DNA of 64,000 bases from Oopsacas minuta (lineage: Eukaryota > Animalia > Porifera). A model generated the notes under the pieces. The model did not search any database, was not told the origin of the DNA, and saw only the letters and a program-made list of their open reading frames with translations. Positions 8,691 through 39,634 of this stretch are shown piece after piece; within the stretch, counting starts at the first letter, position 1; each line of letters begins with the position of its first letter. A program made the translations under genes and the position numbers. The DNA lies in contig JAKMXF010000312.1 in NCBI GenBank assembly GCA_024704765.1, positions 186,001 through 250,000 on the forward strand, given 5' to 3'.

Positions 8691-11033
8691 TTAAAAAACG
8701 ATCAGTAAAGCTAGCATCGACATCAGCAGAGAGAGGATGCTTACTTGAATAGTTTCAGCTTGATTAGGATTGAATTGGAGTTTCTCGTAAAACCCTGAAT
8801 TGAATATGTAATTAGTACACATAGTCAACTCGTCTGGGGCTGGATTATGTCTGTTAGAAGCTTCCTCAATCAGTATAGCCATACCCTGTATTTGATGTAT
8901 TTCTATGTGGCAATGTGCAAACCAATAACCTGGATTATCCGATTTGAAGTTGAGAACCACATATCCACCAGCTGGTATAATTACGGTATCTTTACGAGGT
9001 GTTTTGGAGGAAATGTTCAGAAGAGGACTTGGATCACTCCATGATGGATTTGTACATGTCATTGTCCGCTCTGTACACTGACCAGTGACATTAGGCAGTT
9101 GTAGAAGTTGATTACAATCAATGTCTGGATTTTGTTCATTAACATAACCGTTTCTATCATAATAAGATGGGTACCCTACCTTCAATACTTGGAAGGTGTG
9201 TCCATGAATATGCATTGGATGTGAGTTTAAGAATCTTCCTTCAGCACTGACAACTATTTGAACGGTTTTATCGTAATCTATCTCAACCTGATGCGTGCAG
9301 ATACATCCGTATTGATTAGAGGGATGTGCGCTACAATCTTGATTATCATCACAAACATCTGAATATTGTCCAAACTGTGTTTGCTGTACTTGAGGTGGGT
9401 AGGGGGGAAGAACGAACCTCCTGCCATTAATCGATCCACTAAATCCCTCTCCTTCAAAATTAAGATTCCAGAAGAACAGGTGATCGTTGTCAGTTGCGTA
9501 GGCTTCAGGCAGATCTTCAGCTGGGGTTTCTATCAGTAGTCGGAAATTATCAACATTTATGCAATCTATCCCATAAGAAGTATGAAAATTTTCGAATGGA
9601 CAGTTCACTGCTCTACACCTAGGTCCCATGGTACAATTTCTCATAGGAGAGTTCATACTGATACTCTCATAGGAAGTAGATGGCACTCCGTTATCCATTG
9701 GTGCTGTCTCGTAATGGAGAATAGCTTCAGTGTAATGGTTAAGAGAAGGGAACGGTGCATTAGCGAAACAGTCAGGTTCTGCTTCAAGTGTTTCAATGCG
9801 TATTATGTAATTGGAAATTACAGCAGTTGCGTTGAGAAGGAAATCGTATCTCTCTCCAGAATGAATGATTATGTAATTAACCTCTTCAATAGGTTCTATG
9901 AAGTAGCTGTCTGTAGCAATCGTGGTTAGATTGTGTCCGTCAATTGAGAATCTGAACGCGTACAATGACTGAGCCCCGATTAACCTGAACCTGTACACAT
10001 TCCCTCGTTCTACCCTGAACTCTGATAACCTACTAGATATATAAGGGACTGATTCTTCCCTTCCTAGCCCGTTAATCAGCGACGAGAAATATGGGGCTGG
10101 TCCTACTTCACCGCCATCATAGCTAAAGGTAGATGAGTAGGTCGTGTCGGTGCTCATTGGCACTTCATAAACTGGTATATCTGGATAGAATCTTAAGCCT
10201 GGATTGGCAATCTCAATATCATCAATGCTTGTAGACTCAAACCAATCACTAATAACAATTGTATGTCTGTCAGGATAATCTAGAAATGGACCTACACCCA
10301 AGCTCTCAAACGCTTCCGCTACCTCTGTCTTTGTCTTATTGTTCTCTCTGACTATAATACCACCAAACATTCCATCTGCTCTCTGAGTACCTGTATGTGA
10401 ATGGTACCAGAAGGTCCCAGGTACTGTTCCAACGAATGCATACGTGAAGGTTGTTGATGGTGCAATTGAACATTGTGTAATCTGTCCTACACCATCCATC
10501 CAGGGAGTATTGAATTGTTCAATTCCATGCCAATGAATGCTAGTTGCCTCATTTGTTAGTCCATTGACTATATGTGCGATTAGAGTGGCATCTTGATCCA
10601 TGATAATGGTAGGAGATGGTATTACACCATTCAGTGTGTATACTACTTTATAGTTCTTGCCATCTACCCAATTAGGCGTAATACAGAATGTGCTGTTGTC
10701 TATATAATTCTTGCAAGTGGAGTTTATTACCGGTATTGGTTCTCCGGTAACGTTATCCAGGTTGTATACGGTTCCTGCACTCCCTAAGATTTGGTTAGGT
10801 TTTACCCCAAGCACTTGATAGCTAGCGAATGTCTTGATTTGAGTAGCAGTCATTGTTAGCTCACATTCATCGTATCCAACCTCACACTCACACACTCTAT
10901 CTCCCCAACCACACTCTACCACACAGCGTTTCTTTCCATCGACTATTTCTGTGGATTGACAAGTAGCACTGACTGTAGTTATCCACGTTATGTAGAGCAA
11001 TACGAGGAGTAATACTTCTCTGAGTACTCCCAT
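8691..11033 (-). CDS. Laccase-type three-domain multicopper oxidase, 780 aa, signal peptide and C-terminal hydrophobic (GPI/TM) tail, single coding exon
   Basis: Cu motifs IHWHG, WYHSH, HPMHIHGH and HCHIEIHQIQGM (axial Met). Likely start MGVLREVLLLVLLY at 11033, just after an acceptor CAG; a GTGAGT donor lies near 11168. Confidence 0.95.
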   Translation of the reverse strand: MGVLREVLLLVLLYITWITTVSATCQSTEIVDGKKRCVVECGWGDRVCECEVGYDECELTMTATQIKTFASYQVLGVKPNQILGSAGTVYNLDNVTGEPIPVINSTCKNYIDNSTFCITPNWVDGKNYKVVYTLNGVIPSPTIIMDQDATLIAHIVNGLTNEATSIHWHGIEQFNTPWMDGVGQITQCSIAPSTTFTYAFVGTVPGTFWYHSHTGTQRADGMFGGIIVRENNKTKTEVAEAFESLGVGPFLDYPDRHTIVISDWFESTSIDDIEIANPGLRFYPDIPVYEVPMSTDTTYSSTFSYDGGEVGPAPYFSSLINGLGREESVPYISSRLSEFRVERGNVYRFRLIGAQSLYAFRFSIDGHNLTTIATDSYFIEPIEEVNYIIIHSGERYDFLLNATAVISNYIIRIETLEAEPDCFANAPFPSLNHYTEAILHYETAPMDNGVPSTSYESISMNSPMRNCTMGPRCRAVNCPFENFHTSYGIDCINVDNFRLLIETPAEDLPEAYATDNDHLFFWNLNFEGEGFSGSINGRRFVLPPYPPQVQQTQFGQYSDVCDDNQDCSAHPSNQYGCICTHQVEIDYDKTVQIVVSAEGRFLNSHPMHIHGHTFQVLKVGYPSYYDRNGYVNEQNPDIDCNQLLQLPNVTGQCTERTMTCTNPSWSDPSPLLNISSKTPRKDTVIIPAGGYVVLNFKSDNPGYWFAHCHIEIHQIQGMAILIEEASNRHNPAPDELTMCTNYIFNSGFYEKLQFNPNQAETIQVSILSLLMSMLALLIVF

Positions 11034-11884
11034 AGCTGTAGATACAAAATATATATCAAATATTAACTTCTCAATTAGCGTATACGTACATATTAACACT
11101 TTTAATTTTCTTGTGTTTTCTCGCGTGGAATATCTTATTAGCAATCAATAGTTATATAGAATACTCACCCGGAAACATGTATTAGCAACTTAAGCAATCT
11201 CAAAGCACATTTGTACGTATTTACGGAATTTGGGTGTCTAAATGAAGCCTAAAAATCTCGGAGAAATATTTTTCAAATCACTTACGCATACTGACTGGGT
11301 CCTTTGATGGGTGTTGATGATAGCATTCTTGATAAATATTTCAGTAAACAAGAGCTCTTCTAGCCATATAGGATTTGTTCTTTTTTGCCCAGAAATGCTG
11401 TTCCCCCCAGAAAATTAATCTGATACACTGAATTAGGGAACTACAGCTGTTTCTGACACCTATGGAGGAACTATTTACGCTAATTTCTCTAATTAGTTAT
11501 TCATTTTGAGACAGAAAATCTAATCAGATTGGAAAATAAAAAAATCTCAGAGGGGGAGGGGCTATGAAAGGTCAGGGGCCAAAATATCGTGACAACCTCT
11601 GGTGTGACTTTCTTCAAGTAGAATTTGGTTATTGAAATGTCTGTTCCGTTCAGCTTTTTTCTTTTGTGATTATGCCCTCAAAATTCTTGAATTTTGTTTT
11701 CAAGTGAATATTCTTCGTGTCATCGTTGTGGTTTTGTTATTGAGAGTAACAAGCTAGTGACGCTAGTGAGAAAATATTTGTAGGTATTCTATTTACATTT
11801 ATAGAAGGTATTAACCGCCAGAATCTTGTCTCTTGTTGAGTTACTCATTCTTAAGTTTTATATCAGGTGTTTTACTGCACAATT

Positions 11885-12580
11885 ATGGCGAACTATCAAC
11901 AATTTGTTGATAACATCGGGGAAGGAAGGATTGTCCCAGCTTACTACAAGCTACTCTCTGACATCAATTATTGTATCGGCGTATTTGAACGTTTGGAAAC
12001 TAATCGGACTTATTCTGAAATGTGGTATGATTGGTATGATGGGAAGAGAGGTCAAATCGATGTAGAAGGGTTCTCGGGAGCTATGAACACCTTAATGCAA
12101 GAGATATATTTAGGACTGACGCTGTACCTTGATTTGTCATATAAAGTGAAATATATGCAAACTTCTCAAGAATCTAAGCCTCAACCAGTGACACACTCTG
12201 AAGGAAGTACTCCACTCTGGGGGACTCAACAAGAATTGATGCACCAATTTGAACAGCTGGTAACTGCTATTAAACATATTGTAGTCCCGGACAAATCGCA
12301 ACCATGGTATCAGTTTTTCATGACTCTGGTGATGACAATAGTGAGGTACATAGTGACCCATGAATTGAGCTATCGTGCCAAAATGTACAAAATTATAAAG
12401 GAACTTTACCTGAATCTCAATCAGGGTGGTGTATTGGAGGTGTTAAGAGATAATCATAGGACCGTGAAAGAGCTGATACTAAATGTTGCTCCAGAGGCTG
12501 ATTTATCGGACGTGTTAAGAGAGCATAAGATCGTGACAGAGCTGATACTAAATGTTGCTCCAGGGGCTGATTTATCTTAG
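11885..12580 (+). CDS. Unknown family, member A1 (231 aa)
   Basis: Intronless ORF starting MANYQQF, preceded by an acceptor AG at 11865-66. The open frame is conserved in paralog A2, and the ETNRTYSE..DW motif is shared with the B genes. Confidence 0.8.
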   Translation: MANYQQFVDNIGEGRIVPAYYKLLSDINYCIGVFERLETNRTYSEMWYDWYDGKRGQIDVEGFSGAMNTLMQEIYLGLTLYLDLSYKVKYMQTSQESKPQPVTHSEGSTPLWGTQQELMHQFEQLVTAIKHIVVPDKSQPWYQFFMTLVMTIVRYIVTHELSYRAKMYKIIKELYLNLNQGGVLEVLRDNHRTVKELILNVAPEADLSDVLREHKIVTELILNVAPGADLS

Positions 12581-12834
12581 ATCTAGCTTAAGGTTAGAAA
12601 TCTATTGTATTCTTACTACTCCTAAATGTATATACAAACTTTCCTATTTTACCTAAAACTTCTCTCTTAATTTTCGATGTAATTTGCTTGGCTAGAGGGC
12701 AGGGGTATATTTGAAGGGGACTCTAGGGGCTCCCATGAGGACTAGTTGGTGTGTGCTCTATTTACCTATTTAAGACCTCACTAATGATAGCAATAGGATA
12801 CTTTACACTTGATTGTTTAAAACAAACTAGAGTT

Positions 12835-13911
12835 ATGGCCTCTACCCTAAGCTTTGATGGTCCCTTCGTTGCATCGGAATCCTTCCGTCAAATCTTGACT
12901 AATACAAATCATTGTCTTGACATGTTCGAGCATATAGAGACTAATAGAACTTGGTCAGAGTGGGCTTCAGATTGGGCAGTAGGTGAGAGGAATTCTATTA
13001 ATGGAGAAAGAATGGTTGGTTTCCTCAAAAAACTGATAAATAATGCTAGGAGTGGACAGAATGCATGTGCTGAGTGCTTAGAGGCATTAGATAAAGCTGA
13101 CAGTTTAAATACGAGAGCCAAACAAATGAATATATATCTTGAAGTTGAGGATTATGATATTTCTCAAGTAAAATTAGGTAAAACGTACGATCTAAACCGA
13201 AGCCCCAAATACAAAGAAACAAAGGCACTTGAGTATGCTGATTTGATCACCTATGGTGGTTTAACAGTACTGGCAACAGGAACTGTAACAGGAATCGAAT
13301 TCAAAAGGCGCGGTAAAAATTGGCAAGAAATAACAAAGTTATTTCGTAAGGTAAATATACTTACCTTCTCTAGAGATACTGTTATTATTTGCTCTTTCAC
13401 TGCATTAGGTGTACTTTTAGCTACCATAGCTTATAATAATGTTCATTCTAAAGGGCTTGAAAGGGGTGAAATATACCATAAAGTGAAGGAACTGTACGAG
13501 ACATTAGCGCTATTTGAAGTTGAAGGAACGCTTGCAAGTTTTGACAGTTTTGTAATGGAAATCGAAAGTGTCACCCGGCAAATACATTCAAGAAATGTTG
13601 ACTACGAGAAAATGGTTGATTTTCACATTACTGAAGCTTCGAATGCTAGGTTCCAGATTGAAACAAATCTACGAAACGAGGAGAAAACTCGCCAAAACAA
13701 GAAAGGTGTTACAGAAGCTATGAAACTATATCAACAAACTATCGAGAAGGAACTTAATGATTTATCTATTGAAGAACCAGATATGAGTGAGGAGATGAGA
13801 AAGAGAAGTGCTAAAAGAATAGCTAAGAACAGCTGTAAATCCTTTCTGAAAGGAAAATTGAATTACACTGATGATGAAGCAGATGAGTTTGTAGAAGTTT
13901 TCCAAAACTAA
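12835..13911 (+). CDS. Unknown family, member B1 (358 aa; helical, central hydrophobic segments, C-terminal coiled coil)
   Basis: Intronless ORF starting MASTLSF. N- and C-termini are conserved with B2. Hydrophobic stretches LITYGGLTVLATGTVTG and TVIICSFTALGVLLATIAY. Confidence 0.8.
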   Translation: MASTLSFDGPFVASESFRQILTNTNHCLDMFEHIETNRTWSEWASDWAVGERNSINGERMVGFLKKLINNARSGQNACAECLEALDKADSLNTRAKQMNIYLEVEDYDISQVKLGKTYDLNRSPKYKETKALEYADLITYGGLTVLATGTVTGIEFKRRGKNWQEITKLFRKVNILTFSRDTVIICSFTALGVLLATIAYNNVHSKGLERGEIYHKVKELYETLALFEVEGTLASFDSFVMEIESVTRQIHSRNVDYEKMVDFHITEASNARFQIETNLRNEEKTRQNKKGVTEAMKLYQQTIEKELNDLSIEEPDMSEEMRKRSAKRIAKNSCKSFLKGKLNYTDDEADEFVEVFQN

Positions 13912-14110
13912 CTTTTTTCTGTGGGCAGCTATCTCCTCTTATTTTATTTCTTTTAGGTGTTTTACTAAATATTTTTAGGAATTCTTTCTTTATGACGAAC
14001 ATAATCTTTTTGAATATTGTGGTAGCAGGGGCAGATGTTAGAAATGCTGGGGGGGATAATTATCCAGCTGGTGGGGCGCTGTAATCCCCCAGTAGGGTCC
14101 AGGGGCGAAC

Positions 14111-14172
14111 TTAAGTGGTAGTAATAGGGCCTGTCGGCACTTGGACGACAGGCCCTATTCACTACCACTTAA
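14111..14172. other. TTAA-bounded 62-bp hairpin (second copy at 17791-17853)
   Basis: ttaagtggtagtaatagggcctgtcg-loop-cgacaggccctattcactaccacttaa; ~26-bp stem, 9-nt loop. Confidence 0.85.
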
Positions 14173-14298
14173 TTTCCCCTTCTACTTACTGTTAAGAAAG
14201 TCAAAATATTTTCTCTTAACTTCCCCATCTTCATTTGACTTGGAATTAGAAGTACTTGACTCTAATAACCGAACCAAGTTGTTTAGCAGCCAGTTAGT

Positions 14299-14425
14299 AT
14301 GGTGTTATTAGCTGCAGCTATCTGCTCCAAACAGGGAAAGATTCTAGTGTCTCGACAGTTTGTAGAGATGAACAGATCTCGTATTGAGGGATTGCTTACT
14401 ACATTCACTAAGCTGTTAGAATCTG
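14299..14425 (+). pseudogene. Orphan duplicate of delta-COP exon 1
   Basis: 127 nt ([42 protein letters not shown]) nearly identical to 17910-18036, with the donor retained. No downstream delta-COP exons follow before the duplication junction. Confidence 0.9.
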
Positions 14426-15528
14426 GTTAGATACATATGATATCTTATACGAACTATAACTTTACGTATATCATATCCAACTGTCCTTTTTAGTCCTCCA
14501 GGGCTTGTCTTGATTATTTTCCTATAATTATTTGATGTAAAACAATTTATACGAGTAGTAATACTTCTCTGAGTGCTCTTTGATGATAGTATTCTTGATA
14601 AATATTTCAGTAAACAAGAGCTCTTCTAGCCATATAGGATTTGTTCTTTTTTTGCCCAGAAATGCTGTTCCCCCCAGAAAATTAATCTGATACGTTGAAT
14701 TAGGGAACTACAGCTGTTTCTGACACCTATGGAGGAATTATTTACGTTAATTTCTCTAATTAGTTATTCATTTTGAGACAGAAAATCTAATCAGATTGGA
14801 AAATAAAAAAATCTCAGAGGGGGAGGGGCTATGGAAGGTCAAGGGGCCAAAATATCGTGACAACCTCTGGTGTGACTTTCTTCAAGTAGAATTTGGCCGT
14901 TTCGTGAATTTGGTTATCAAAATGTCTGTTCCGTTCAGCTTTTATCTTTTGTGATTGTGACCTAGAAATTCTTGAAAAACAATATTTCTCACAAATAATA
15001 CTTTAATAAGTTCAGCTAAATTAGCAAAAGTATTTGAATATAAATAATCAGAAAAGGCTCTGTTCAGATAAATTGATCAAAACTAAAATTTTGTTGGAAT
15101 TTGTTATATTATTAAAACTTTCCAATTAAAACGAAATGATACAATTCTTAAGATATTAGTCTACAAAGTTCGTAAGTTTACTCACGAGTTAGAATACACT
15201 TGCATTAGACACCTATAATTATCTTGTAATATCCCTACAAGATAATTATAGGCATTGTATTTATATTTCAGATTCCTCATATAAAGCTCAGCTATAGTAT
15301 AGTAATACAGTCTTTGTAATACAAAAACCCCCGACCCTCATTCCGAAAATGACATTTCCTCGAACATAGAAAAGCTAATATTCAAAAAACTGTACTATAG
15401 TATAGGTTAGCTGTATATAAGGTATTCTATTTACTTTTATAGAAGGTATTAACCTCCAGAATCTTGTCTCTTGTTGACTAGTTACTCATTCTTAAGTTTT
15501 ATATCAGGTGTTTCACTGCTGCACAATT

Positions 15529-16164
15529 ATGGCGAACTATCAACAATTTGTTGATAACATCGGTGAAGGAAGGATTGTCCCAGCTTACTCCAAGCTACTC
15601 TCTGACATCAATTATTGTATCAAAGTATTTGAACGTTTGGAAACTAATCGGACTTATTCTGAAATGTGGTATGATTGGTATAATGGAGAGAGAGGTCAAA
15701 TCGATGTAGAAGGGTTCTTGGGAGCTATGAACACCTTAAGGGAAGAGATAAAATTAGGACTGAGGCTGTACCTTGATTTGACATATAAAGTGAAAAATAT
15801 GCGAACTTCTCAAGAATCTAATCCTCAACCAATGACACACTCTGAAGGAAGTACTCCACGCTGGGAGACTCAACAAGAATTGATGCACCAATTTGCACAG
15901 CTGGTAACTGCTGTTGAACATATTGTAGTCCCGGACGAAACACAACCATCCTATCAGTTTTTCATGACTCTGGTGATGACAATGGTGACAAGGATGAGTT
16001 ACAAGGCGACTCCTGAATTGAGCTATCGTGCGAAAATGTACAAAATTATAAAGGAACTTTACCTGAATCTCAATCAGGATGGTGTATTGGAGGTGTTAAG
16101 AGATAATCATAAGACCGTGAAAGAGTTGATACTAACTATTGATCCAGAGGCTGATTTATCTTAG
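15529..16164 (+). CDS. Unknown family, member A2 (211 aa)
   Basis: Paralog of A1 with an intact frame, a 9-nt in-frame indel and no C-terminal duplication. Confidence 0.8.
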   Translation: MANYQQFVDNIGEGRIVPAYSKLLSDINYCIKVFERLETNRTYSEMWYDWYNGERGQIDVEGFLGAMNTLREEIKLGLRLYLDLTYKVKNMRTSQESNPQPMTHSEGSTPRWETQQELMHQFAQLVTAVEHIVVPDETQPSYQFFMTLVMTMVTRMSYKATPELSYRAKMYKIIKELYLNLNQDGVLEVLRDNHKTVKELILTIDPEADLS

Positions 16165-16423
16165 AACTAGCTTAAGGTTAGAAAAGTATTGTATTCTTAC
16201 TACTACTAAATGTATATACGGGCTTTCCTATTTTACCTAAATCTTTCCTCTTAATTTTCTATCTGATTTGCTTGGCTAGAGGGCAGGGGTTTATTTGAAG
16301 GGCTCCCAGGCCTCCATGAGCCATGAGGACTAGTTGGTGTGTGCTCTATGTAAGATATTTAAGACCTCACTAATGATTTAAATGAGATATTTTACACTTG
16401 ATTATTTATAACAAGCTAGAGTT

Positions 16424-17578
16424 ATGGCCTCTAGCCTAAACTTTGATGATCCTTACGTTGCATCGGAATCCTTCTATCAAATCTGGACTGATGCAAATCA
16501 TTGTCTTGGCATGTTCGAGCGTCTTGAGAAGAATAGAACTTGGTCAGAGTGGGCTTCAGATTGGACAGTAGGTGAGAGGAATTCTATTAATAGAAAAAGA
16601 ATGGTTTTTTTCCTCAAAAAACTGATAGAGAATGTTAAGAGCGGACAGAATACATGTGAGGGGGTAAAACAAGAATTAACTAAGCAGAAAGGTTTACAAA
16701 TGAGGGCCGAACAGTTGAAAATAAGGGCCGAACAGATGGAAAGATGTTAGAAAATTTTGAAATTTGTAAATACAAATCAGGTGAACCGTACAATAGAAGG
16801 GAAGGAACTCCTGGAAAGAAACTCGAATGTGGTAGAATGATAAACTTTGGAGGAATGGTAGGAGCAGGTGGAACAGCATTGGCTACAACATTAGCAACTG
16901 GAGTTACTGCTGTCGATTTAGCAGCAGTCTCTAAGGGGATTATCGTTTTGCCAGCGATGACAATGAGTACTGTTGTCGTTACCTGTAATCGCTATTAGTG
17001 AACTAACTCTCATAGGTGGACTTTTAAGTGCCGTCGCTTATAAACATGTTCATTCAAAAGGGACTAATAGGGGCATAATATACCAGAAGGTTAAGCAACT
17101 ATACGATATGTTATTGGATATGGAAGATAAAAGAGTCTTTGCTGATTTTCAGGGTCTTACAACAGCAATGGAAAGTCACACAAAGATGCTACAAGAATAT
17201 ATCAAAGATTGCGAAAAAACGCTTGATGATCAGCAAAAAATACTTGATGAACAGCAACAAATGCTTATGCTTGAATTTCAACTCAAACAACAATCTCAGG
17301 CCCCGCAGGCTAGGTTGCAGTATGAAACAGATATACAAAGCAATGAGAAGAAAGACTTCATCAAAAAGCGGGAAGAAGGTGTTGCAGAAGCTCTGATACT
17401 ATACCAACAAACTTTCAAGAAGGAACTTAATGATTTATCTATTGAAGAACCAGATATGAGTGAGGAGATGAGGAAGAGAAGTGCTAAAAGAATAGCTAAG
17501 AACAGCTGTAAATCCTTTCTGAAAGGAAAATTGGATTACACTGATGATGAAGCAGATGAGTTTTTAGATTTTTCATAA
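16424..17578 (+). CDS. Unknown family, member B2 (~384 aa), interrupted by two compensating frameshifts (assembly error or pseudogene)
   Basis: ORF pieces 16424-16750, 16744-16998 and 16973-17578 align colinearly with B1. Shifts at ~16747 (TT where TTT restores frame) and ~16979. Confidence 0.7.
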
Positions 17579-17909
17579 TTTTCCCAAACTATCTTTTTTC
17601 TGTGGGCAGCTATCTTTCGTTGCATTTTGTTTATTTTAGGTGTTTACTGAATATTTTTAGGATTTCTTTCTTTTTGATGAACATTATCCCTTTTTGAATA
17701 TTGTGGTAACAGGGGCGGATGTTAGAAATGCTGGGGGATAATTATCCAGCTGGTGAGGCGCTGTAACCCCCAGTAGGGTCCAGGGGCGACTTAAGTGGTA
17801 GTAAATAGGCCCTGTTGGCACTTAGACGACAGGCCCTATTCACTACCACTTAATATCCCCTTCTACTTACTGTTAAGAAGTCGAAATAGTTACTTAGCAG
17901 CTAGTTAGT

Positions 17910-20110
17910 ATGGTGTTATTAGCTGCAGCTATTTGCTCCAAACAGGGAAAGATTCTAGTGTCTCGACAGTTTGTGGAGATGAACAGATCTCGTATTGAGG
18001 GATTGCTTACTACATTCACTAAGCTGTTAGAATCTGGTTAGATACATATGATATCTTATACGAACTATAACTTTACGTATATCATATCCAACTTTCCTTT
18101 TTAGTCCTCCAGGCTTGTCTTGATAATTTTCCTATAATTATTTGATGTAAACAATTCATATAAAGTGAAACCTCACACAGGGGTCTGTAGAAATGGAGTG
18201 AAAAATAAATAGCGAATTCCTATTCCCATTTGTGTAGGTTACGCATTACCTATTTGTTATTCTAGGAGACAGTAAACAACAACACACTTTCATAGAAACA
18301 GAATCAGTTCGCTACGTCTACCAGCCAATGGATTCCAGTCTCTACACAGTATTACTAACCACTAAAGCTAGTAATATCCTTGAGGACTTGGAGAGCTTAA
18401 GACTATTCTCTCGTGTAGTTACAGAGTACTGTACTACTGTATGTGAAGCTGATATTAAGGACAATGCATTTCAACTCATCTTTGCATTCGATGAGATTGT
18501 AGCATTGGGATATAGAGAGAACGTTAATATGACTCAAATAAGGTTTATATAATATTTCTAAGCTCAGAAACTCGTATACTATATGTAATTTTACAGGACT
18601 TATATTGACATGGATTCTTACGATGAGAAGGTGTCTATTGCACAACGAAAGGCTCAAGAGAGAGAGGCAGCTGACATAATGAAGAGGAAGGCTAAGGAAC
18701 TAGAGCTAGCTCGTAAGGAGCAGGCTAAGAAGGGAGGAATGGGTAGAGGAGATAGGATATCATTTCCAGGTATTATCTCCATCCAGATATGTATATACAG
18801 TGTATGCCGGTTATAAAAACACCCTTGGGGGTAGTAATACAGGTTCTTATACTAAAATATACAGGAATATATGAACACAGTTTTCCAGAGGATGGTACTT
18901 ATAACCAGCATCCACTGTAATTACTATATTAGATGCTGTATAACATCTTGTAGGAGGTATAGCTGGTACAGGTGTTAGTTCCAGTGAGGTGAATACGCTC
19001 TCAGTCCTAGACAACAAACCTCCCTTCTACTCATCTCAAGGGAAAGCAGCCGGTAGCAGGGGAATGAAACTGACACCTAAATCAAGAAATGTGGAGAATT
19101 TTGTGGATAACATAATGTTTGTTATTAAATAAAAATTAGAGTTGACAGATTTACTTCTATTTATACTCTAGGCGAGAAGGTGGACACGTAGCATCTCTCA
19201 CAACAAAAGACGCCAGAACAGGAGCTTCTCATCTCAGTCAATCAGCTGTTAGTCTTAAGCCTACTTCTCCTGTACATATTCTAGTGCAGGAGAAGATTAA
19301 TCTGTTTGCTGATAGAAATGGGGGTCTGGAGCAATTCGAGGTATTTACACTCTTGTTAATGTGCGGATTCTACAGCTCCTGTAATTTTTAATTCACACTA
19401 GATTAATGGAGTTCTTTATCTTATCGTTTCGGATGCAGACGGATTAGAGAATACACAAGTACAAATTGAAAGTAAAGAGAAACGTAACTTTCAAATGCAA
19501 ACTCATCCTAACATCGATAAGAAGTTATTTCTACAGAATTCTATTATAGCTATTAAACCTGATGGAAAGTCTTATCTATTAGGAGAGAAGGTGTTACTCA
19601 AATATGGACCATTTTACCTTTCATGTTTTATATACTTCATTGGTTTAGACAGGTGTATTGAAATGGCGTTTCGCCAGCACAGATGAATCAAACATTCCTC
19701 TCTCCATAAACTGTTGGCCCTCAGACGGGGGAGATAGGTGTGATGTGAATATAGAGTATGAGCTGACTCAGCCTAATCTTACGCTTAATGACGTTATAAT
19801 TAGCATTCCATTACCCACGGGATCTGGTAACCCAGTTGTAACAGAATCTGATGGAGATTATGCACTAGACTCTAAGAAGAGATTATTAGACTGGCATTTA
19901 CCTGTGATAGATTCTAACAACACAACTGGTTCAATGGAATTCAGTATACCTGGGCTACCAGATGATTTCTTTCCTATTTCTATTCAGTTTCATTCTGATA
20001 AACCCTTCATGCAGTTTTCAATTCATGACGTCATTTCTAGGAATACTGGTGAAAAAGTTAAATTTTCTATGGAAGCAGAATTATTAGTCGACAGATATGT
20101 CATTCAGTGA
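17910..20110 (+). CDS. ARCN1: Coatomer subunit delta (delta-COP), multi-exon
   Basis: [21 protein letters not shown]; [34 protein letters not shown]; [18 protein letters not shown]; MDSYDEK; mu-homology C-terminus ([23 protein letters not shown]). Confidence 0.96.
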
Positions 20111-32715: not shown

Positions 32716-35700
32716 ATGTCTTGTGAAAAGACTTTTCACAAGAGAAAGGAACTGAAGATTATGTTGCGTTATCTATTGACAAAACTGATCATGTGATAGC
32801 GTCAAAAGTAATAACTCTACAGAATACTGATGCAACTGGGTTATTTGATAACAGGGCAGGTTCTGAGTCTAAATCTTCAGAGAAATCGAAAGCGGAACAA
32901 GGAGACACTATCACTCATCCTCTTACCATAACAGAATCTGAAGCAACTGGGCTATTTGATAACAGGGCAGGTTCTGAGTCTAAATCTTCAGATGAATCGA
33001 AAGCGGAACAAGGAGAAGAGAATTTATTACGAGATAAGTTTCTCAGACTAAATCTTGATCAAGAAGAAATAGAGTTATTAATAGAACAGGGGGATAGGTT
33101 TGTCGAGAGACCACCTTTGCTCTTAGCTAGAAGGTTGAACATACATGTAGATAAAGCGAAGTTAATTATTGTAGCTCTTAAAGACTTTAAGAACCAAGAA
33201 CAAGTTAAAAATATATCAAAAGGCGATATTGATAAAATAGAAGAATGTTTGAAAGATCCCGAATTTTCGACTCCAGAAGATATTTCTTTGATTTCTGGGA
33301 TTGATTTACGCATTATTGTTAGATACTTACAAAATAAACCTTTAGATGACAAACAGAAAACTGAAATAAGAGAAAAATACAACACTGGATGCTCTATGAA
33401 TGATATTGTAATGATCTTAGGGCTACCAGAGATAAAGGTGAAGGAATATGTAGAGAGCACACTTCTTTCGTTTACTAGTGAAGATGGTAGGAAATGTTTG
33501 CAAATTATTCAGAGTAACTTCAGTGATTACACTTGTCCAGAAATCGAATTGAGAAGATTGATTACTTCTAACAATCTGAAGTTACAAGATAAATTGTGTT
33601 GTATTCTCCAAATACGAAATACAGAAGAGTATTTAAAGTTAAGACATTATTTTGAGAAATTTGAAGAATCAAAGTCATTTTTCCACATCAATACTGAATT
33701 AACCATGGAGGATATCTCTCTTATAAATCAGTACAGTCTCAGTGACATAGAACATCTCAGTATTAAACTTAATAAAGTAGAGAGTGCAATAAGAGAGTAT
33801 CTAGAACAATATCATCCAAACCAAGTAGTCAATCACAATAACTCACTATTGCAAAATGCATATATTCAACAATTTTTGGCAAATTTTGGAGGAAATCAGC
33901 TAACATTCCATTCATATAGAATGATAATTACAAACTCATTCGAAGAAATGATAAGAAACGCGGAGATTACTGAAAATCAAAACAGATTACAGAAAATCAA
34001 AGTATTTGATGACCTTTTACCACTGGCTTTTTATTACCTTAAGTGTAGTCTCCCTTTCAATGATCTAACACAGATAATTGCTAATGCGAGCAAGATGTTA
34101 CTCACTACACACGATTTATTCCATTTAATATTCCAATTATCAGATCCAGTATTAAAAGGGTTCTGTATTGAACATTACTCATTCAGTAATCCTGTTCCTT
34201 TTTATTACCCAAAACTACAAAAAACTTATCAACAAACACATGCAGAATTTACGATATGCAAAGAGCTATGGTACTCTATGCAACAGTTCAATGGGTTAGT
34301 CTCATTTGGGCTGGGAAGAGCTGGTTGGAATCCAATTGGAAAATCTCATTTACTTGACTTAATTTTTGAGACAGATTTTGTTAAAGGAAATCCTCAAAAC
34401 AGTGCTTTCCATTTCAACTCGATTGATATTCAAATGACTAAGAATTTGTTCGGTGAAAAGAAGGAAAATTCTGGTGCCGAATCTATCAAATGGGCTTATA
34501 TAGATTGTAATGGACATTCTAATAAGAATATTATTAAGATAGTATGTCAATACTTGGATATTGCATTGATTCAAATCACTAATCATGATTATGAAAATAA
34601 TAAGCAACTTCTGAATAACGACATCTACAAATTAACTAATTCTGTTAAACATGTATATTTACTCATCAGAGATTATCCGGGTAATGAAGTGAAGGTCGAA
34701 GTCAAGCAAACAGAACAGAAATCAATCAAAAATATTTTCATTCCCAATTTAACAAAACCTGATACGAATTTTAATTCTGTAATAAAGTCCCTGAAAGGAG
34801 TCGGTTATGATATCTTACATCCTAAATCTGAGACCTCGAAAATGATAGGAAGTGAGTTCATAGAGAATGTAATGAAAGATCTAGATCCTCATAGTTTGAA
34901 AGAAATTGAGTCAGAGAAAGTGCTGATTCAAAATATTACTGACTGTGTTAGTAAGTCAGCAAAATCTAGTAAAGTCGGTTTCTCATTTCTCCAATTCTAT
35001 CCTCTATACGTAGATTACATGAGTTGTTATCACAGAGCAAATTCAGAAACAGAATATCACCAAATTAAAGTGTTGAATAATCAAAGGGGGATACTAGCTT
35101 CGAAACTAAATAAAACGAATATGGGAGATATAGTAAAGTATTTCAATGATATCATCTGTAGAGAAAATTCCTCACTTATCATGTGGAAATTATCACAACA
35201 TTTATCTTTGCTCTCAAAACAGATAAATTTTGATAAAAATAGGATAATTGAGCAGAAAAACGATAAATACACAATAGAAATTCTATGGAGAGAGGCTTTA
35301 CTGTCGTATAAGTATTGTACTACTACAAAGGATTTTCGTGGAGAAAGATATATCGATAGATTTGGATGTAATTATAGCAACCATGTAGAGAGGGGAGAAC
35401 CATTCGAACTAATTGATGGAGACAATCTCCGTTTCTTTAATCAAGACATTGATAACCTATTATCTAGGATGTACCAAAGGCAGTTTGAAAAATTAAAGTC
35501 GATCAATAAAGACCAGAAAATCTCAATGAAGCAAGCCCCGATTGTAGTTAGTATAGTTGGGCCTCAGAGTTCAGGAAAATCTACTCTCTTGAACTACTCC
35601 TTTGGCTGCAAGTTCCTAACTAGTGCGGGAAGATGTACAAGAGGGATATACGCTTCTCTCTCCAAGCTAAGTCACTCTGTGAACCTCATGAACCAGTTAC

Positions 35701-38700
35701 TTATATTGGATACAGAAGGATTAGATGCCATTGAGAGAGGAAATATTAAGGACACATCTTTAATTCATTTCGATAGGACAATGGTTTTATTCTGTCTGGC
35801 AGTCTCACAAGTTGTGATTATTAATGTAAGAGGAGATATAGGTGTAGAAATGCAGAATCTTTTACAGATTTGCGCTTATTCTCTAAACAAACTGAAAGTA
35901 AGGAAAGTAACCGCACCCCAGATATTCTTTGTTCTTAATCAACAAGCTGATCCCGATCCAGACAAACATCTCGACTCAATAAACATTTTGATGGAAAAAT
36001 TAAATAGAGAATCCAATTTAATTGATACCGAAAGGGCTAAGATGTCAGATTTAATACACATCTCAAGAGAGAATCTGTTTGTTCTTCCTTCAGCGTTCAA
36101 CTCAGAACAAATCAATAAACCAGGTTTGAATCTTTTTGATTCAAAAATAATCAAACTCTCTCCAACTATTACTTTTGCTGATAAATGTGCAGATTTACGT
36201 TTTGCAATCATTAAACAGCTGTACAGCATGTCCTTGGATAAAAGAACCCCTTTCCAAACGATGAGTGAATGGATGAAAATGTCTGGCACGATATGGGACA
36301 CAATTATCAGATATCAAGATATTGTCAAATATAAAAATGTTGAGGAAATGATTTGCAGTAACTTCCTTAAGAATATAATATCTGAATTAATGGACACACA
36401 TATTTACTGTCACAAAGACAAATTTCTTGAAATGACAGAAAACTTTCTGCGAGAATTCAAACAATTGACATTCTTAATAATTCTGATGAAACATTGACAC
36501 AAATCAGGGTCGAGTTTAATGACTTCTTCCAAACACATACAAATCAGTGTTTAATGGAATATTCCAACCGCTGTCAAAATGAAATATCCCTCAAGAAGAT
36601 GAATCATCTTATTGATGAGTCAAAGTTAAATTTATCACGTCACATTTATACGGAGAAGAAAACTTACGATGATAAACTCAAATTCCAAATTTCTGCTGCG
36701 TTAATGGAAAAAAAGCTTTCAGGAAGTATTGGGAAGTTCCAAGAAGCAATCATTAAAAATGTTGATAATTATTTGGAATTCAATGTTGAGCAGCAAACAC
36801 AAGCTTTTGAAGACACTTGGATTCAGTGCTTTGGAGATGAGGACAAAAATGAAGAGGTGTTTGAACGTGATGAAACTTTTAACAATTTACATTCTCTTTT
36901 CATGATGGAGTCTATTAGTATGGAAAAGAGCTCAGAAATACGTGAATATTCTTAGAAACGATTTTCAAATGGATAAAATAATCAATGATGTTAAAGACAT
37001 TATTTTGACAAGATTCTTAGAAGATTCTAGCACATTGAAGGGTATAGAACAGTTCATTTTCCCTTGTAAAGGTAATACTATTCCCATAAAAGATATGACT
37101 CCCTTTCCTGGAAAACAGTCATATGACTATCTTGCTAAGAATTCATTATTCTCAATTGATAATAGTATTTTGTACGTAATGAGAACTAAACCGAAACTGA
37201 AGCTTTACGAATGGGTTCCACTACAATGCAGGCCTCTAATTAAGTATTGTTCTGGTTATTATAATCATGCAGACATTAATTGGATGGAATGGCATGAGGA
37301 TAAGCAAATATTATATTTAGCTGCTGTCTTAAGATCTCCACGCGCTCCCAATAGGAGTACATGGGAAGTATTAATCGAAGACATTTCAAGTCATCTCCAA
37401 TATTGTGTTAGATATGACCCAAATGTTTCTCCAGCAACTATCAAAGAGATAGTTTACTTTCTATGCTCTACAATTAATACTGTTAATCATGAAATAAACT
37501 GTATACAAGCTAAACTGAGTAATGCAGCAGAGAGGACACTTTCAACATTCGCGTTTGCATATGCATTCAAATCTCTCTGGGAAACTAAGACAAATAAAAG
37601 ATTAGAAAATAAACTCAAAACAGAGAAAGAAAAGATTAACTTGCTTCAGTACTTTCTACAAAAAATAGAAATTCGTAAAATGTTCCGTGGAGATTGGGAT
37701 CGCGAGAAAATGAAAAATAGTGATCATGAAATCTCCAGCGTATTCGCTTTAGATTTGTTAGGACGTATAAAGAGAGGGGTACTAACTACAGAACAACCTA
37801 TTATTGAAAATCTCTTCTCTGAGCGAAAAGGTGAACTAACACACAGATCCATATTTCTTTGTGCAAAATCTAGATTATCAAAGAGCTTGAAACACCTGAT
37901 CAGGAGATATTTAGTGAGAATAATTTTGTTGTTCAATATGTTTGTAATCGAAACGAACTGCTAAGAAATATTTTCTTTGAGAAATGGTCAATTGTTGCAG
38001 AAGAACTTTATCAGGAAGTAATTCCAGAAATTTCCAAGAAAATTAAAAAACAGGTACAAGTCATTAAGATGGTTCTCAGTACTTTACTGGATGACCTTGA
38101 ATCTATTAATGCTGGGAGTTCAGAAAATAAAGCGTTCGATTCAGACAGTAATTTCGAGATAGCTGACAAGGTTTCAGTGGGTTCTGAGGTAAAGGTAAAG
38201 GTAAAGGAAAGTCCCTTCAAAGCTATGGTACTGTATTTACGTATGTATCTAGACCCAAATGTTACTCCAGGAAAATTCAGAGATTATTTTACTGAAACAT
38301 TCAAGGTTGATGGTGTAAAAATGAAAAAATCTGATACATACAAATTATGTGATAAGCCGAATAATCCAAACTATATCCTCGATGAAGACATCTTCAAAAA
38401 GTTGGATTATACAAAGATGTTTACCTGTGAAAATATTTTTAACATCTCAGAATATGTCACCAAATTTCTATCCATTTTAGATAGCTTTATATTTGAATTG
38501 ACAAGAGAGGAATTTACTGAACTGGTTCTTCTAATACAACAAAATTTCGAGAGGGATGTTATCGGTTGTCCCAATCAATGTCCTAGTTGCGGTAAGCTCT
38601 GTGAGAGAGAACTGCATCCAAATGATGGCAAATGTCAGATTAAAACTGGTCACCAAATCTGTTCGATGGGTGGTAAGGTTTGGAATGATAAAAACAGAGC

Positions 38701-39634
38701 TGCAGTTTTATACATGTGTGATGATTACAAAGATAATACTAACGTTGTCCTACAGGGAAGAGCTATGACCTGGGGACAGTTTAGGATATTGTGGGAGAAG
38801 GAATGGGACTGGACGATGCCGAACGATAAGAGCTACCTGGACTTACAGGACAATAATCGTGATAATATGATAAAAATATGGAACAAATTCGGGAAGGGAA
38901 TTTTGAATTATTACTCAACCAGAGGAACTCAGATTTTTTTTGTACCCTATGATACATTTCAAGAAACTCTTTCCATCAAATATTACATTTGTTTCGTTAT
39001 TGACGGGACAGTGTCAATGGCTACGGAAATCGGGAAGGCTCGTATTTCTGTTGGACAATTCATGGAGAAATATAAAGAACGTGCTGTTAATTCAGAATTT
39101 AAAATCATTATCTATCGAGATCACTGTGACAAGAAAATTATAGAAAAGTATCCTTTTGGTAACAAGTTCACACCAAAACACGTGGAAATACAGGAATTCC
39201 TTAGTACAGTTAAAGCTATGGGAGGAGGAGACTACCCTGAAGCAGTGTTAGATGGCTTAGCTACTGCAACTAGTCAATGTGACTGGGAAACTAGTCAAGG
39301 AGTGAAAAACATCATAATTCATATATTTGACGCACCCCCACATGGAGATTTTCCAGACCATACATTGCATCACTCTAAAAGCAACCCTAAACATTGTTGT
39401 TGTTGTAATCAAGGTACCCTGTGTCAATTTGATTGGGATAGAGATGTATGGGATAATATTGTGAAGTTTAATATCCAATACAATGGGATAAATACTGGAC
39501 CGAAATTCCCCGAATTCGAAGCTGCGATGAAACGGAAATTAGGAGAACTTTGTGCAGATTTTCAGACTGTTGGACAGGAAGTGGTTAACGAAGCAATTCT
39601 CCAGATTTTTATTCAGAATAAATTGGATTGTTAA
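32716..39634 (+). CDS. Very large inducible GTPase (VLIG/GVIN-URGCP-like) with N-terminal HTH-like repeats and C-terminal VWA domain; ~2306 aa after repairing four frameshifts
   Basis: G1 GPQSSGKSTLLN, G2 GRCTRG, G3 LILDTEG; upstream degenerate G-like box (VSFGLGRAGWNPIGKSHLL); GVIN-type Cys cluster CPNQCPSCGKLC; VWA motifs FVIDGTVSM, YRDHCD, GGGDYPEAVLDGL, HIFDAPPHG. ORF pieces overlap in different frames with no splice signals. Confidence 0.85.

What the first reader, a model, noticed from the sequence alone, without database searches (positions are those of the whole stretch)
11885..17578. Unrecognised paired gene family (A + B) in tandem: candidate two-component pore-forming or immune effector system
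Seen: the A and B ORFs look unrelated at first but are homologous. A reads LLSDINYCIGVFERLETNRTYSEMWYDWYDGKRGQI and B reads ILTNTNHCLDMFEHIETNRTWSEWASDWAVGERNSI; later, A has RAKMYKIIKELY and B has RGEIYHKVKELY. The window therefore holds four members arranged A1-B1-A2-B2, all intronless and co-oriented with ~255-bp A-to-B spacers. B has a long Gly/Ala-rich hydrophobic hairpin between helical regions plus a conserved C-terminal helical tail. A is shorter, with only one hydrophobic patch. I do not recognise the motif. Established: co-encoded homologous pairs with helical bundles and hydrophobic hairpins are typical of ClyA-class bipartite alpha-pore-forming toxins (YaxAB/XaxAB, Nhe/Hbl), and apolipoprotein L proteins have similar hairpins. 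Inference: A/B may be a bipartite membrane-attack pair, or an effector with a truncated decoy/regulator.
Basis: partly seen in the sequence, partly recalled or inferred. Interest (0 to 1): 0.85.

Follow-up and report, generated by a model that had tools for sequence, protein, structure and literature searches.

The report
Fast-evolving hairpin protein pair in sponge
A glass sponge carries two tandem copies of a pair of related, undescribed helical proteins, one with a hydrophobic hairpin that likely inserts into membranes and one without; they likely serve in defence, but the second hairpin gene is broken in this sequence and no sequence link to known pore-forming toxins was found.

Summary
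The observation mostly holds. A1, B1 and A2 are intact single-exon ORFs. A and B are homologous (hhalign 98%). B2 is not intact: it lies in three pieces with two frame changes. [quoted passage not shown] A and B belong to one undescribed family (66 representatives) with hairpin-bearing and hairpin-less members (23 and 11 of 34 scored). All 3 closest B relatives elsewhere share a contig length with an A relative. The hairpin region is the most variable part: B1 and B2 are 82-98% identical at their ends but 42-71% in the middle. No sequence link to ClyA/Hbl/Xax toxins was found, although a true member scored strongly as control; fold searches were inconclusive. A's hydrophobic patch is not conserved, which argues against two pore-lining subunits. 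Best reading (0.38): a cytosolic, membrane-inserting defence effector (B) with a hairpin-less regulator (A). Function is untested.

The parts
11885..12580 (+). A1: hairpin-less family member, 231 aa, single ORF; ends in a short duplicated repeat
   Evidence: in NCBI nr as an annotated protein (P0005)
12838..13911 (+). B1: hairpin-bearing member, 357 aa from the start conserved in B2 and relatives (annotated from 12784 as 375 aa)
   Evidence: AlphaFold2 model pLDDT 78.6, pTM 0.64; identical in public contigs X2 and X3
13243..13434 (+). B1 hydrophobic hairpin: residues 136-153 and 181-199 around a Lys/Arg-rich loop; most variable region of the family
   Evidence: low pLDDT at 115-181
13699..13908 (+). 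B1 C-terminal three-helix domain (residues 288-357), conserved in B types and some A types, absent from A1 and A2
   Evidence: 44-45 of 67 identical to P0002 and P0003
14299..14427 (+). Orphan copy of the first coding exon of coatomer delta, carried along by the duplication
   Evidence: same 43 aa as 17910-18038, which matches coatomer delta at E 3.4e-13
14549..14976 (+). Duplication junction: 30 nt copied from 11000-11029, then a copy of 11314-11691
   Evidence: self-blastn
15529..16164 (+). A2: 211 aa, 83% identical to A1, dN/dS about 1.1
16424..17578 (+). B2: broken in this sequence into three pieces (16424-16750, 16744-16998, 16967-17578); ends near-identical to B1, middle deeply diverged
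   Evidence: other versions in public contigs
17910..18038 (+). First coding exon of the intact coatomer delta gene, right flank
   Evidence: spliced joints downstream in run X4
8691..11033 (-). Multicopper oxidase, left flank, divergently oriented
   Evidence: Pfam Cu-oxidase domains

Best explanation
[quoted passage not shown] Shown: homology, hairpin presence and absence, lack of an N-terminal signal, the recent 3.6-kb duplication, the broken B2, and the hypervariable middle. Inferred: membrane insertion (from hydropathy and helix order: three helices, hairpin, two helices, then a three-helix tail), a defence role (from birth-and-death evolution and variation concentrated at the tip), and A's regulatory role (from linkage and repeated hairpin loss).
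For: One family of 66 representatives at E<=0.001 in 1.84 billion proteins. Of 34 rows scored between the two conserved motifs, 23 have a hydrophobic segment (19-residue KD 1.63-2.48, insert 126-190 aa) and 11 do not (0.26-1.33, insert 86-131 aa); 13 rows were partial and 4 unscored. Hairpin state changes at least 4 times on a quick tree of 49 rows. 0 of 41 members have a hydrophobic N-terminus. All 3 closest B1 relatives share a contig length with an A-clade protein: 13068, 23489 and 896730 bases. Variation peaks at the same site in both types: B1 versus three relatives 15-21% at residues 76-200 against 48-58% at 10-75; A1 versus the five relatives that are complete there 17-25% at 141-165 against 50-63% at 1-90. 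B1 versus B2 DNA is 82-98% identical at the ends and flanks but 42-71% over about 600 central bases, dS 0.37-0.71 against 0.06-0.08. Without selection such divergence left the frame open in 49 to 232 of 5000 simulations, so the middle diverged as coding sequence. At least three B2 versions appear between the window and one public sample, while B1 shows 0 differences over 799-814 bases in the main contigs. Run X4, RNA-like by its GT-AG joints (inferred), has contigs on B1 and depth over A1, A2 and B2.
Against: No functional data. No significant sequence or fold match to any membrane-damaging family; the model is unreliable exactly at the hairpin (pLDDT under 50 at 115-162 and 168-181). B1's own hairpin is interrupted by a charged loop and is less Gly/Ala-rich than its relatives' (0.27 against up to 0.70). 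dN/dS near 1 in all six comparisons (0.88-1.69) fits relaxed constraint as well as mixed selection, and counts are small. Pairing is not strict: 7 of 13 ENA contigs with a hairpin member and 7 of 13 with a hairpin-less member held both types among the proteins looked up; two hairpin members share contig 834935 and two hairpin-less ones share 185617. Contig length is only a proxy for contig identity. Microsynteny is common in glass sponges (PMC10282587).
Confidence: 0.38

Rival explanations
1. Obligate two-component ClyA-class pore (XaxAB/YaxAB-like), with A and B both building the pore.
For: Co-encoded homologous pair; helix order (three helices, hairpin, two helices) resembles the ClyA-class layout described in PMC6162564; no signal peptide; weak leads: Atlas rank 9 cluster with 27% Bacillus_HBL, score 0.78, one of 51 members hits MakA at E 0.037, an Hbl-family protein scores 14.7 bits over the hairpin region; 6 of 41 members, 4 of them A types, end in a hydrophobic segment that could anchor them.
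Against: A control ClyA-class protein hits 7 such NCBIfam models at E 4e-20 to 4e-7, the family does not; hhalign probability 1.6% to ClyA and 6.2% to the Hbl-like protein (single-sequence templates). The review says hydrophobic residues of both subunits are conserved in XaxAB; A's patch is not conserved. Types do not always co-occur.
Confidence: 0.12
2. Non-lytic membrane-anchored coiled-coil proteins: the hairpin anchors B in an organelle or plasma membrane with both ends in the cytosol, for tethering, fusion or junction building in syncytial tissue; A types are soluble or tail-anchored partners.
For: Top row of the second-look fold comparison is the Chlamydia IncA soluble domain (Z 7.7, rmsd 4.9, 151 aligned; its role in fusion is recalled); long predicted helices of 58 and 82 residues; glass sponges are syncytial and the content of their plugged junctions is unknown (PMC10280926).
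Against: Z 7.7 is in the noise range for helical bundles. Hypervariable hairpins, many copies, truncations and a broken copy are unusual for a structural component.
Confidence: 0.22
3. Linkage is incidental: A and B are independent paralogues left side by side by tandem birth-and-death, and A does not act on B.
For: Family members cluster up to five per contig (896730: P0003, P0013, P0014, P0032, P0034); same-type pairs exist; nearly half of glass-sponge genes are syntenic between two species (PMC10282587).
Against: A-clade and B-clade proteins share even 13-kb and 23-kb contigs and vary at the same site.
Confidence: 0.2
4. The second unit, or at least its breaks, is an assembly product: two divergent haplotypes placed in tandem, or a chimeric B2.
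For: The window's exact B2 middle is not in the main contigs (no depth at 17181-17327 in X1 and X3, depth 10 in X2); one X2 contig joins 11480 to 14748, skipping unit 1, across 86 letters that fit both sides; the assembly was a hybrid short/long-read one (PMC10280926); I saw no contig listed across the junction itself.
Against: Both units have their own contigs at depths near the flanks (X3: flanks 88.5 and 95.6, B1 76.4, B2-like 68.1; X2: 230, 215, 179, 156; depth is a weak measure); the junction carries a rearranged 30-nt piece that allelic overlap would not create. Even if true, the A-B pair and the family stand.
Confidence: 0.15

Closest known systems
ClyA-class alpha-pore-forming toxins (XaxAB/YaxAB, Hbl/Nhe, Ahl, Mak)
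   Same: All-helical; hydrophobic hairpin between long helices; homologous components encoded side by side (PMC6162564, part 1 of 3 read)
   Different: No sequence homology against a working control; extra conserved three-helix tail; partner has no conserved membrane segment; animal and apparently lineage-restricted
Apolipoprotein L family (recalled, not from a call)
   Same: Animal, helical bundle plus central hairpin, tandem clusters, fast evolution
   Different: No ApoL Pfam match among the 25 of 40 families shown for 51 members; no hairpin-less linked partner known to me
SMCO3 / DUF4533 (PF15047)
   Same: Second-best Atlas feature hit, score 0.85, 139 of 256 features
   Different: Below the 0.9 bar and query recognition is low (1779); no Pfam hit; lead only
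MLKL/HeLo/plant CC and CC-R four-helix executioners
   Same: The model's N-terminal bundle aligns with Sw-5b SD (Z 7.8), Rx-CC (7.5), NRG1 CC-R (6.8), MLA13 (6.2)
   Different: Z values in the noise range, with CBL (9.0) and BsaWI (8.8) higher; those use an N-terminal helix (PMC10197012, passages), here the hydrophobic part is central
Fungal het/vic incompatibility loci
   Same: Two tightly linked genes, polymorphism, host whose cells fuse (PMC10197012; PMC10280926)
   Different: No homology claimed; allele frequencies and cell death untested

Membership tests
ClyA-class alpha-PFT | Sequence similarity to family profiles | tested here: not met
   1 of 51 members hits MakA at E 0.037 among 49 scattered families, 25 shown; control protein from L013 hits 7 models at E 4e-20 to 4e-7; hhalign 1.6% and 6.2%
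ClyA-class alpha-PFT | Five-helix bundle fold | tested here: inconclusive
   Model unreliable at residues 115-181; fold searches gave only noise-level rows
ClyA-class alpha-PFT | Hydrophobic membrane segment between the central helices (B) | tested here: met
   23 of 34 scored rows, including B1
Two-component XaxAB/YaxAB type | Conserved hydrophobic membrane-segment residues in both subunits | tested here: not met
   A types have KD19 at most 1.33 there; A1's patch is polar in relatives
Two-component XaxAB/YaxAB type | Components always co-encoded | tested here: inconclusive
   3 of 3 closest B relatives share a contig length with an A; 7 of 13 contigs overall; look-ups covered only part of the family
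Two-component XaxAB/YaxAB type | A-B heterodimer and pore formation | not testable with these tools
   Needs binding, leakage and structural experiments
Apolipoprotein L | Match to the ApoL Pfam profile | tested here: not met
   Not among the 25 of 40 families shown; unshown ones are single-member hits at E above 0.06
MLKL/HeLo/CC-R four-helix executioners | Four-helix bundle fold | tested here: inconclusive
   Z 6.2-7.8, rmsd 3.5-4.5, 93-122 aligned; noise range for helical bundles
MLKL/HeLo/CC-R four-helix executioners | N-terminal helix with transmembrane propensity | tested here: not met
   0 of 41 members reach KD11 1.8 in the first 35 residues; an amphipathic helix would be missed
het/vic-type allorecognition locus | Linked genes with divergent alleles | tested here: inconclusive
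   At least three B2 versions seen, from one public sample plus the window; alleles and paralogues not separable
het/vic-type allorecognition locus | Balanced allele frequencies; cell death on non-self fusion | not testable with these tools
   Needs population sequencing and grafting

The most novel reading that the evidence does not exclude
A-B is a two-gene self/non-self cell-death module of a syncytial animal, analogous to fungal heterokaryon incompatibility: B is a hairpin membrane killer held in check by a matched A, both diversifying at the same tip, so that fusion with foreign tissue or entry of a parasite unmasks B.
Probability: 0.08. Interest if true: 0.9.

Novelty: new variant of a known kind. 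Interest (0 to 1): 0.5.

Why it matters
Glass sponges are syncytial, so they need ways to wall off or kill infected or foreign cytoplasm, and my searches found no effector family described for them. An unannotated family with a swappable, hypervariable hairpin and recurring hairpin-less partners is a concrete, small, intronless candidate that can be expressed and assayed directly. If it is lytic, it adds an animal family of alpha-helical membrane effectors with no detectable link to known ones. If not, it is still a candidate for the unknown proteins of glass-sponge fusion and junctions.

Tried and rejected
Complex prediction of B1 with A1: no answer (score 0.00 twice; alignments were not used, A's fold uncertain); it says nothing either way. 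Pfam, NCBIfam, PHROGs and PDB sequence scans: nothing significant. Foldseek on both models: 0 matches at E<=0.001 in PDB and viral structures; AhlB and SmhB appeared only for the poor first model at E 0.62-1.3. No ClyA-class chain was among the 50 rows shown, which does not exclude the fold. Atlas search with A1: nothing above 0.81, model pTM 0.32. No relative in JGI metagenomes, viral contigs or prokaryote genomes by pattern search or in plasmids. The B profile matched 3 of 400 genomes of one bacterial class at 20-27 bits, centred on the hairpin and without the N-terminal motif; rejected as composition-driven (one further genome was not scored). No RNA holder is listed on record. The Rfam scan of 10500-19500 was empty. 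No whole genome was held, so copy number in O. minuta is unknown. The careful tree did not finish; the quick tree was used. Earlier scan findings: three look-ups returned nothing. Literature searches found no description of this family; two supplementary files of PMC10280926 held none of the terms, and tables not held as text may bear on expression. A and B as exons of one gene was rejected: each is a complete ORF with separate full-length relatives.
Full report
Observation. The window encodes A1 (11885-12580, 231 aa), B1 (12784 or 12838 to 13911) and A2 (15529-16164, 211 aa) as single ORFs on +. The quoted peptides are present. A and B are homologous: BLASTP gives E 7e-11 to 4e-13 over about 60 residues, and the two profiles align at 98% probability. 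The conserved B start is 12838, because relatives and B2 begin there; from it the spacers are 257 and 259 nt. B2 is not intact: homology to B1 runs through three pieces in changing frames, 16424-16750, 16744-16998 and 16967-17578. One piece is annotated as LOD99_5997 of Oopsacas minuta, on a contig of the same length as the window's other proteins, so the window is from this glass sponge.

Origin of the four genes. Self-comparison shows one tandem duplication of about 3.6 kb. It also copied the first exon of coatomer delta (14299-14427 = 17910-18038) and pieces of the region upstream of A1. Flanks and ends are 82-99% identical per 100 columns, so the event is recent. In public contigs from one sample, which may be the source of the assembly, both units have their own contigs at depths near those of the flanks (X3: 88.5 and 95.6 against 76.4 for B1 and 68.1 for a B2-like copy). 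That weakly favours a real duplication. Against it, one X2 contig skips unit 1 across a shared stretch, and I saw none listed across the junction.

B2 is variable. B1 matches the main X2 and X3 contigs with 0 differences over 799 and 814 bases. The main B2-like contig differs from the window, and its length differs near both breaks by amounts that cancel each frame change (my arithmetic; the full letters were not seen, so stops are unchecked). A low-depth version closer to the window differs by 29 letters and 23 gaps in about 750. So the window's breaks are either a rare allele or an assembly error. Run X4 is not on record as RNA, but it alone shows GT-AG joints in the coatomer gene; it has contigs on B1 and depth over all four genes. 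I take this as a hint of transcription, not proof.

The family. A profile of B1 and three relatives found 66 representatives at E<=0.001, 41 at 1e-10, among 1.84 billion proteins. Those looked up come from O. minuta or from unnamed ENA assemblies; I infer related sponges, but the organism is not shown. Members share an N-terminal helix with a D-W-x-x-G-x-R motif, a central R-x-x-x-Y motif and often a three-helix tail. Between the two motifs, 23 of 34 scored rows carry a hydrophobic segment and 11 do not (13 rows partial, 4 unscored). A types form a clade of 17 rows (support 95) that includes one hairpin-bearing row, and the state changes at least 4 times (quick tree). None of 41 has a hydrophobic N-terminus; 6 of 41 end in a hydrophobic segment, 4 of them A types. 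A1's patch is replaced by polar sequence in its relatives.

Linkage. Using contig length as a proxy, all 3 closest B1 relatives share a contig with an A-clade protein, two on contigs of only 13 and 23 kb. Across the ENA contigs I could assign, 7 of 13 with a hairpin member also hold a hairpin-less one, and 7 of 13 the other way. I looked up contigs for only part of the family (30 exact look-ups plus search listings). Same-type pairs occur. Nearly half of genes are syntenic between two glass sponges (PMC10282587, section 2.2 read), so linkage alone proves little.

Where it varies. B1 and B2 are 82-98% identical at their ends but 42-71% over about 600 central bases; dS is 0.37-0.71 there and 0.06-0.08 at the ends, with dN/dS 0.88-1.69 throughout (rough counts). 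The middle is therefore much older than the duplication, which points to recombination or conversion between divergent copies (inference). Neutral change to that depth left the frame open in only 49 to 232 of 5000 runs (no indels modelled). Against relatives, both types vary most at the same site: B1 15-21% at residues 76-200, A1 17-25% at 141-165.

Structure. With 51 sequences AlphaFold2 gave B1 pLDDT 78.6 and pTM 0.64: all helix, confident except residues 115-181. Foldseek found nothing at E<=0.001. The widest comparison gave a best Z of 9.0 (CBL four-helix domain, rmsd 3.9, 121 aligned), with plant NLR coiled-coil domains at 6.2-7.8 and a CAMP factor at 7.0; IncA led the second look at 7.7. 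All lie in the noise range for helical bundles.

Comparison with known systems. ClyA-class toxins share a five-helix bundle with a membrane segment between central helices, hydrophobic in both subunits of XaxAB (PMC6162564, part 1 of 3 read). B's helix order resembles this. By sequence the family does not belong: one of 51 members hits MakA at E 0.037, whereas a true member hits 7 models at E 4e-20 to 4e-7; profile comparisons gave 1.6% and 6.2%. SMCO3 and Hbl clusters in the Atlas are leads below the bar. Fungal het loci, often two linked polymorphic genes that control cell death (PMC10197012, passages), are an analogy for a syncytial host (PMC10280926, passages), not a homology.

Mechanism and verdict. 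I commit to B as a cytosolic protein whose hairpin likely inserts into and damages membranes in defence, and A as a linked hairpin-less regulator (0.38). Membrane insertion, the defence role and A's role are inferred. Rivals are a non-lytic tether or fusion protein (0.22), incidental linkage (0.2), an obligate two-component pore (0.12) and, on a separate axis, an assembly product for unit 2 (0.15). My searches found no description of the family (listings only). It is a real, undescribed family with an unusual pattern of variation and no tested function: interest 0.5.

Noticed in passing
window 11036-11040 (-), and starts at 11885, 12838, 14299, 20423: These genes have an AG 0-18 nt before the ATG, and one X4 contig carries an 8-letter foreign end just upstream of the oxidase start. 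This fits spliced-leader trans-splicing, reported for another glass sponge (PMC10282587); A and B might be processed from one precursor.
   Followed up: partly
window 32727-39634 (+): URGCP/very-large-GTPase-like ORF (1256 aa stop to stop) followed by overlapping ORFs in other frames, the last with a VWA domain: a large immune-type GTPase gene, split by short introns or frameshifts, 15 kb from the pair.
   Followed up: no
window 14104-14179 and 17791-17853: A 25-nt inverted repeat (92% complementary, 13-nt loop) between B and coatomer delta, present in both units; no Rfam match. Possibly a small mobile-element remnant.
   Followed up: partly
window 11865 and 13955: The same 12-nt acceptor-like motif stands just upstream of A and just downstream of B1; unexplained.
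   Followed up: no
P0064 (O. minuta LOD99_355, another scaffold): 521-aa protein that looks like an A type joined to a second family unit; a second locus of the family in this sponge, fused or mis-annotated.
   Followed up: partly
P0030 (unnamed ENA contig): Hairpin expanded into many 9-residue Gly/Ala repeats, about 200 residues long.
   Followed up: no
window 8691-11033 (-): Intronless 780-aa multicopper oxidase with hydrophobic N- and C-termini.
   Followed up: no
L013 (G277:C21): Two adjacent Hbl/Nhe/Mak-like ORFs in an unnamed bacterial genome, the only one of 32 in its order with a PF05791 match; used as control.
   Followed up: partly
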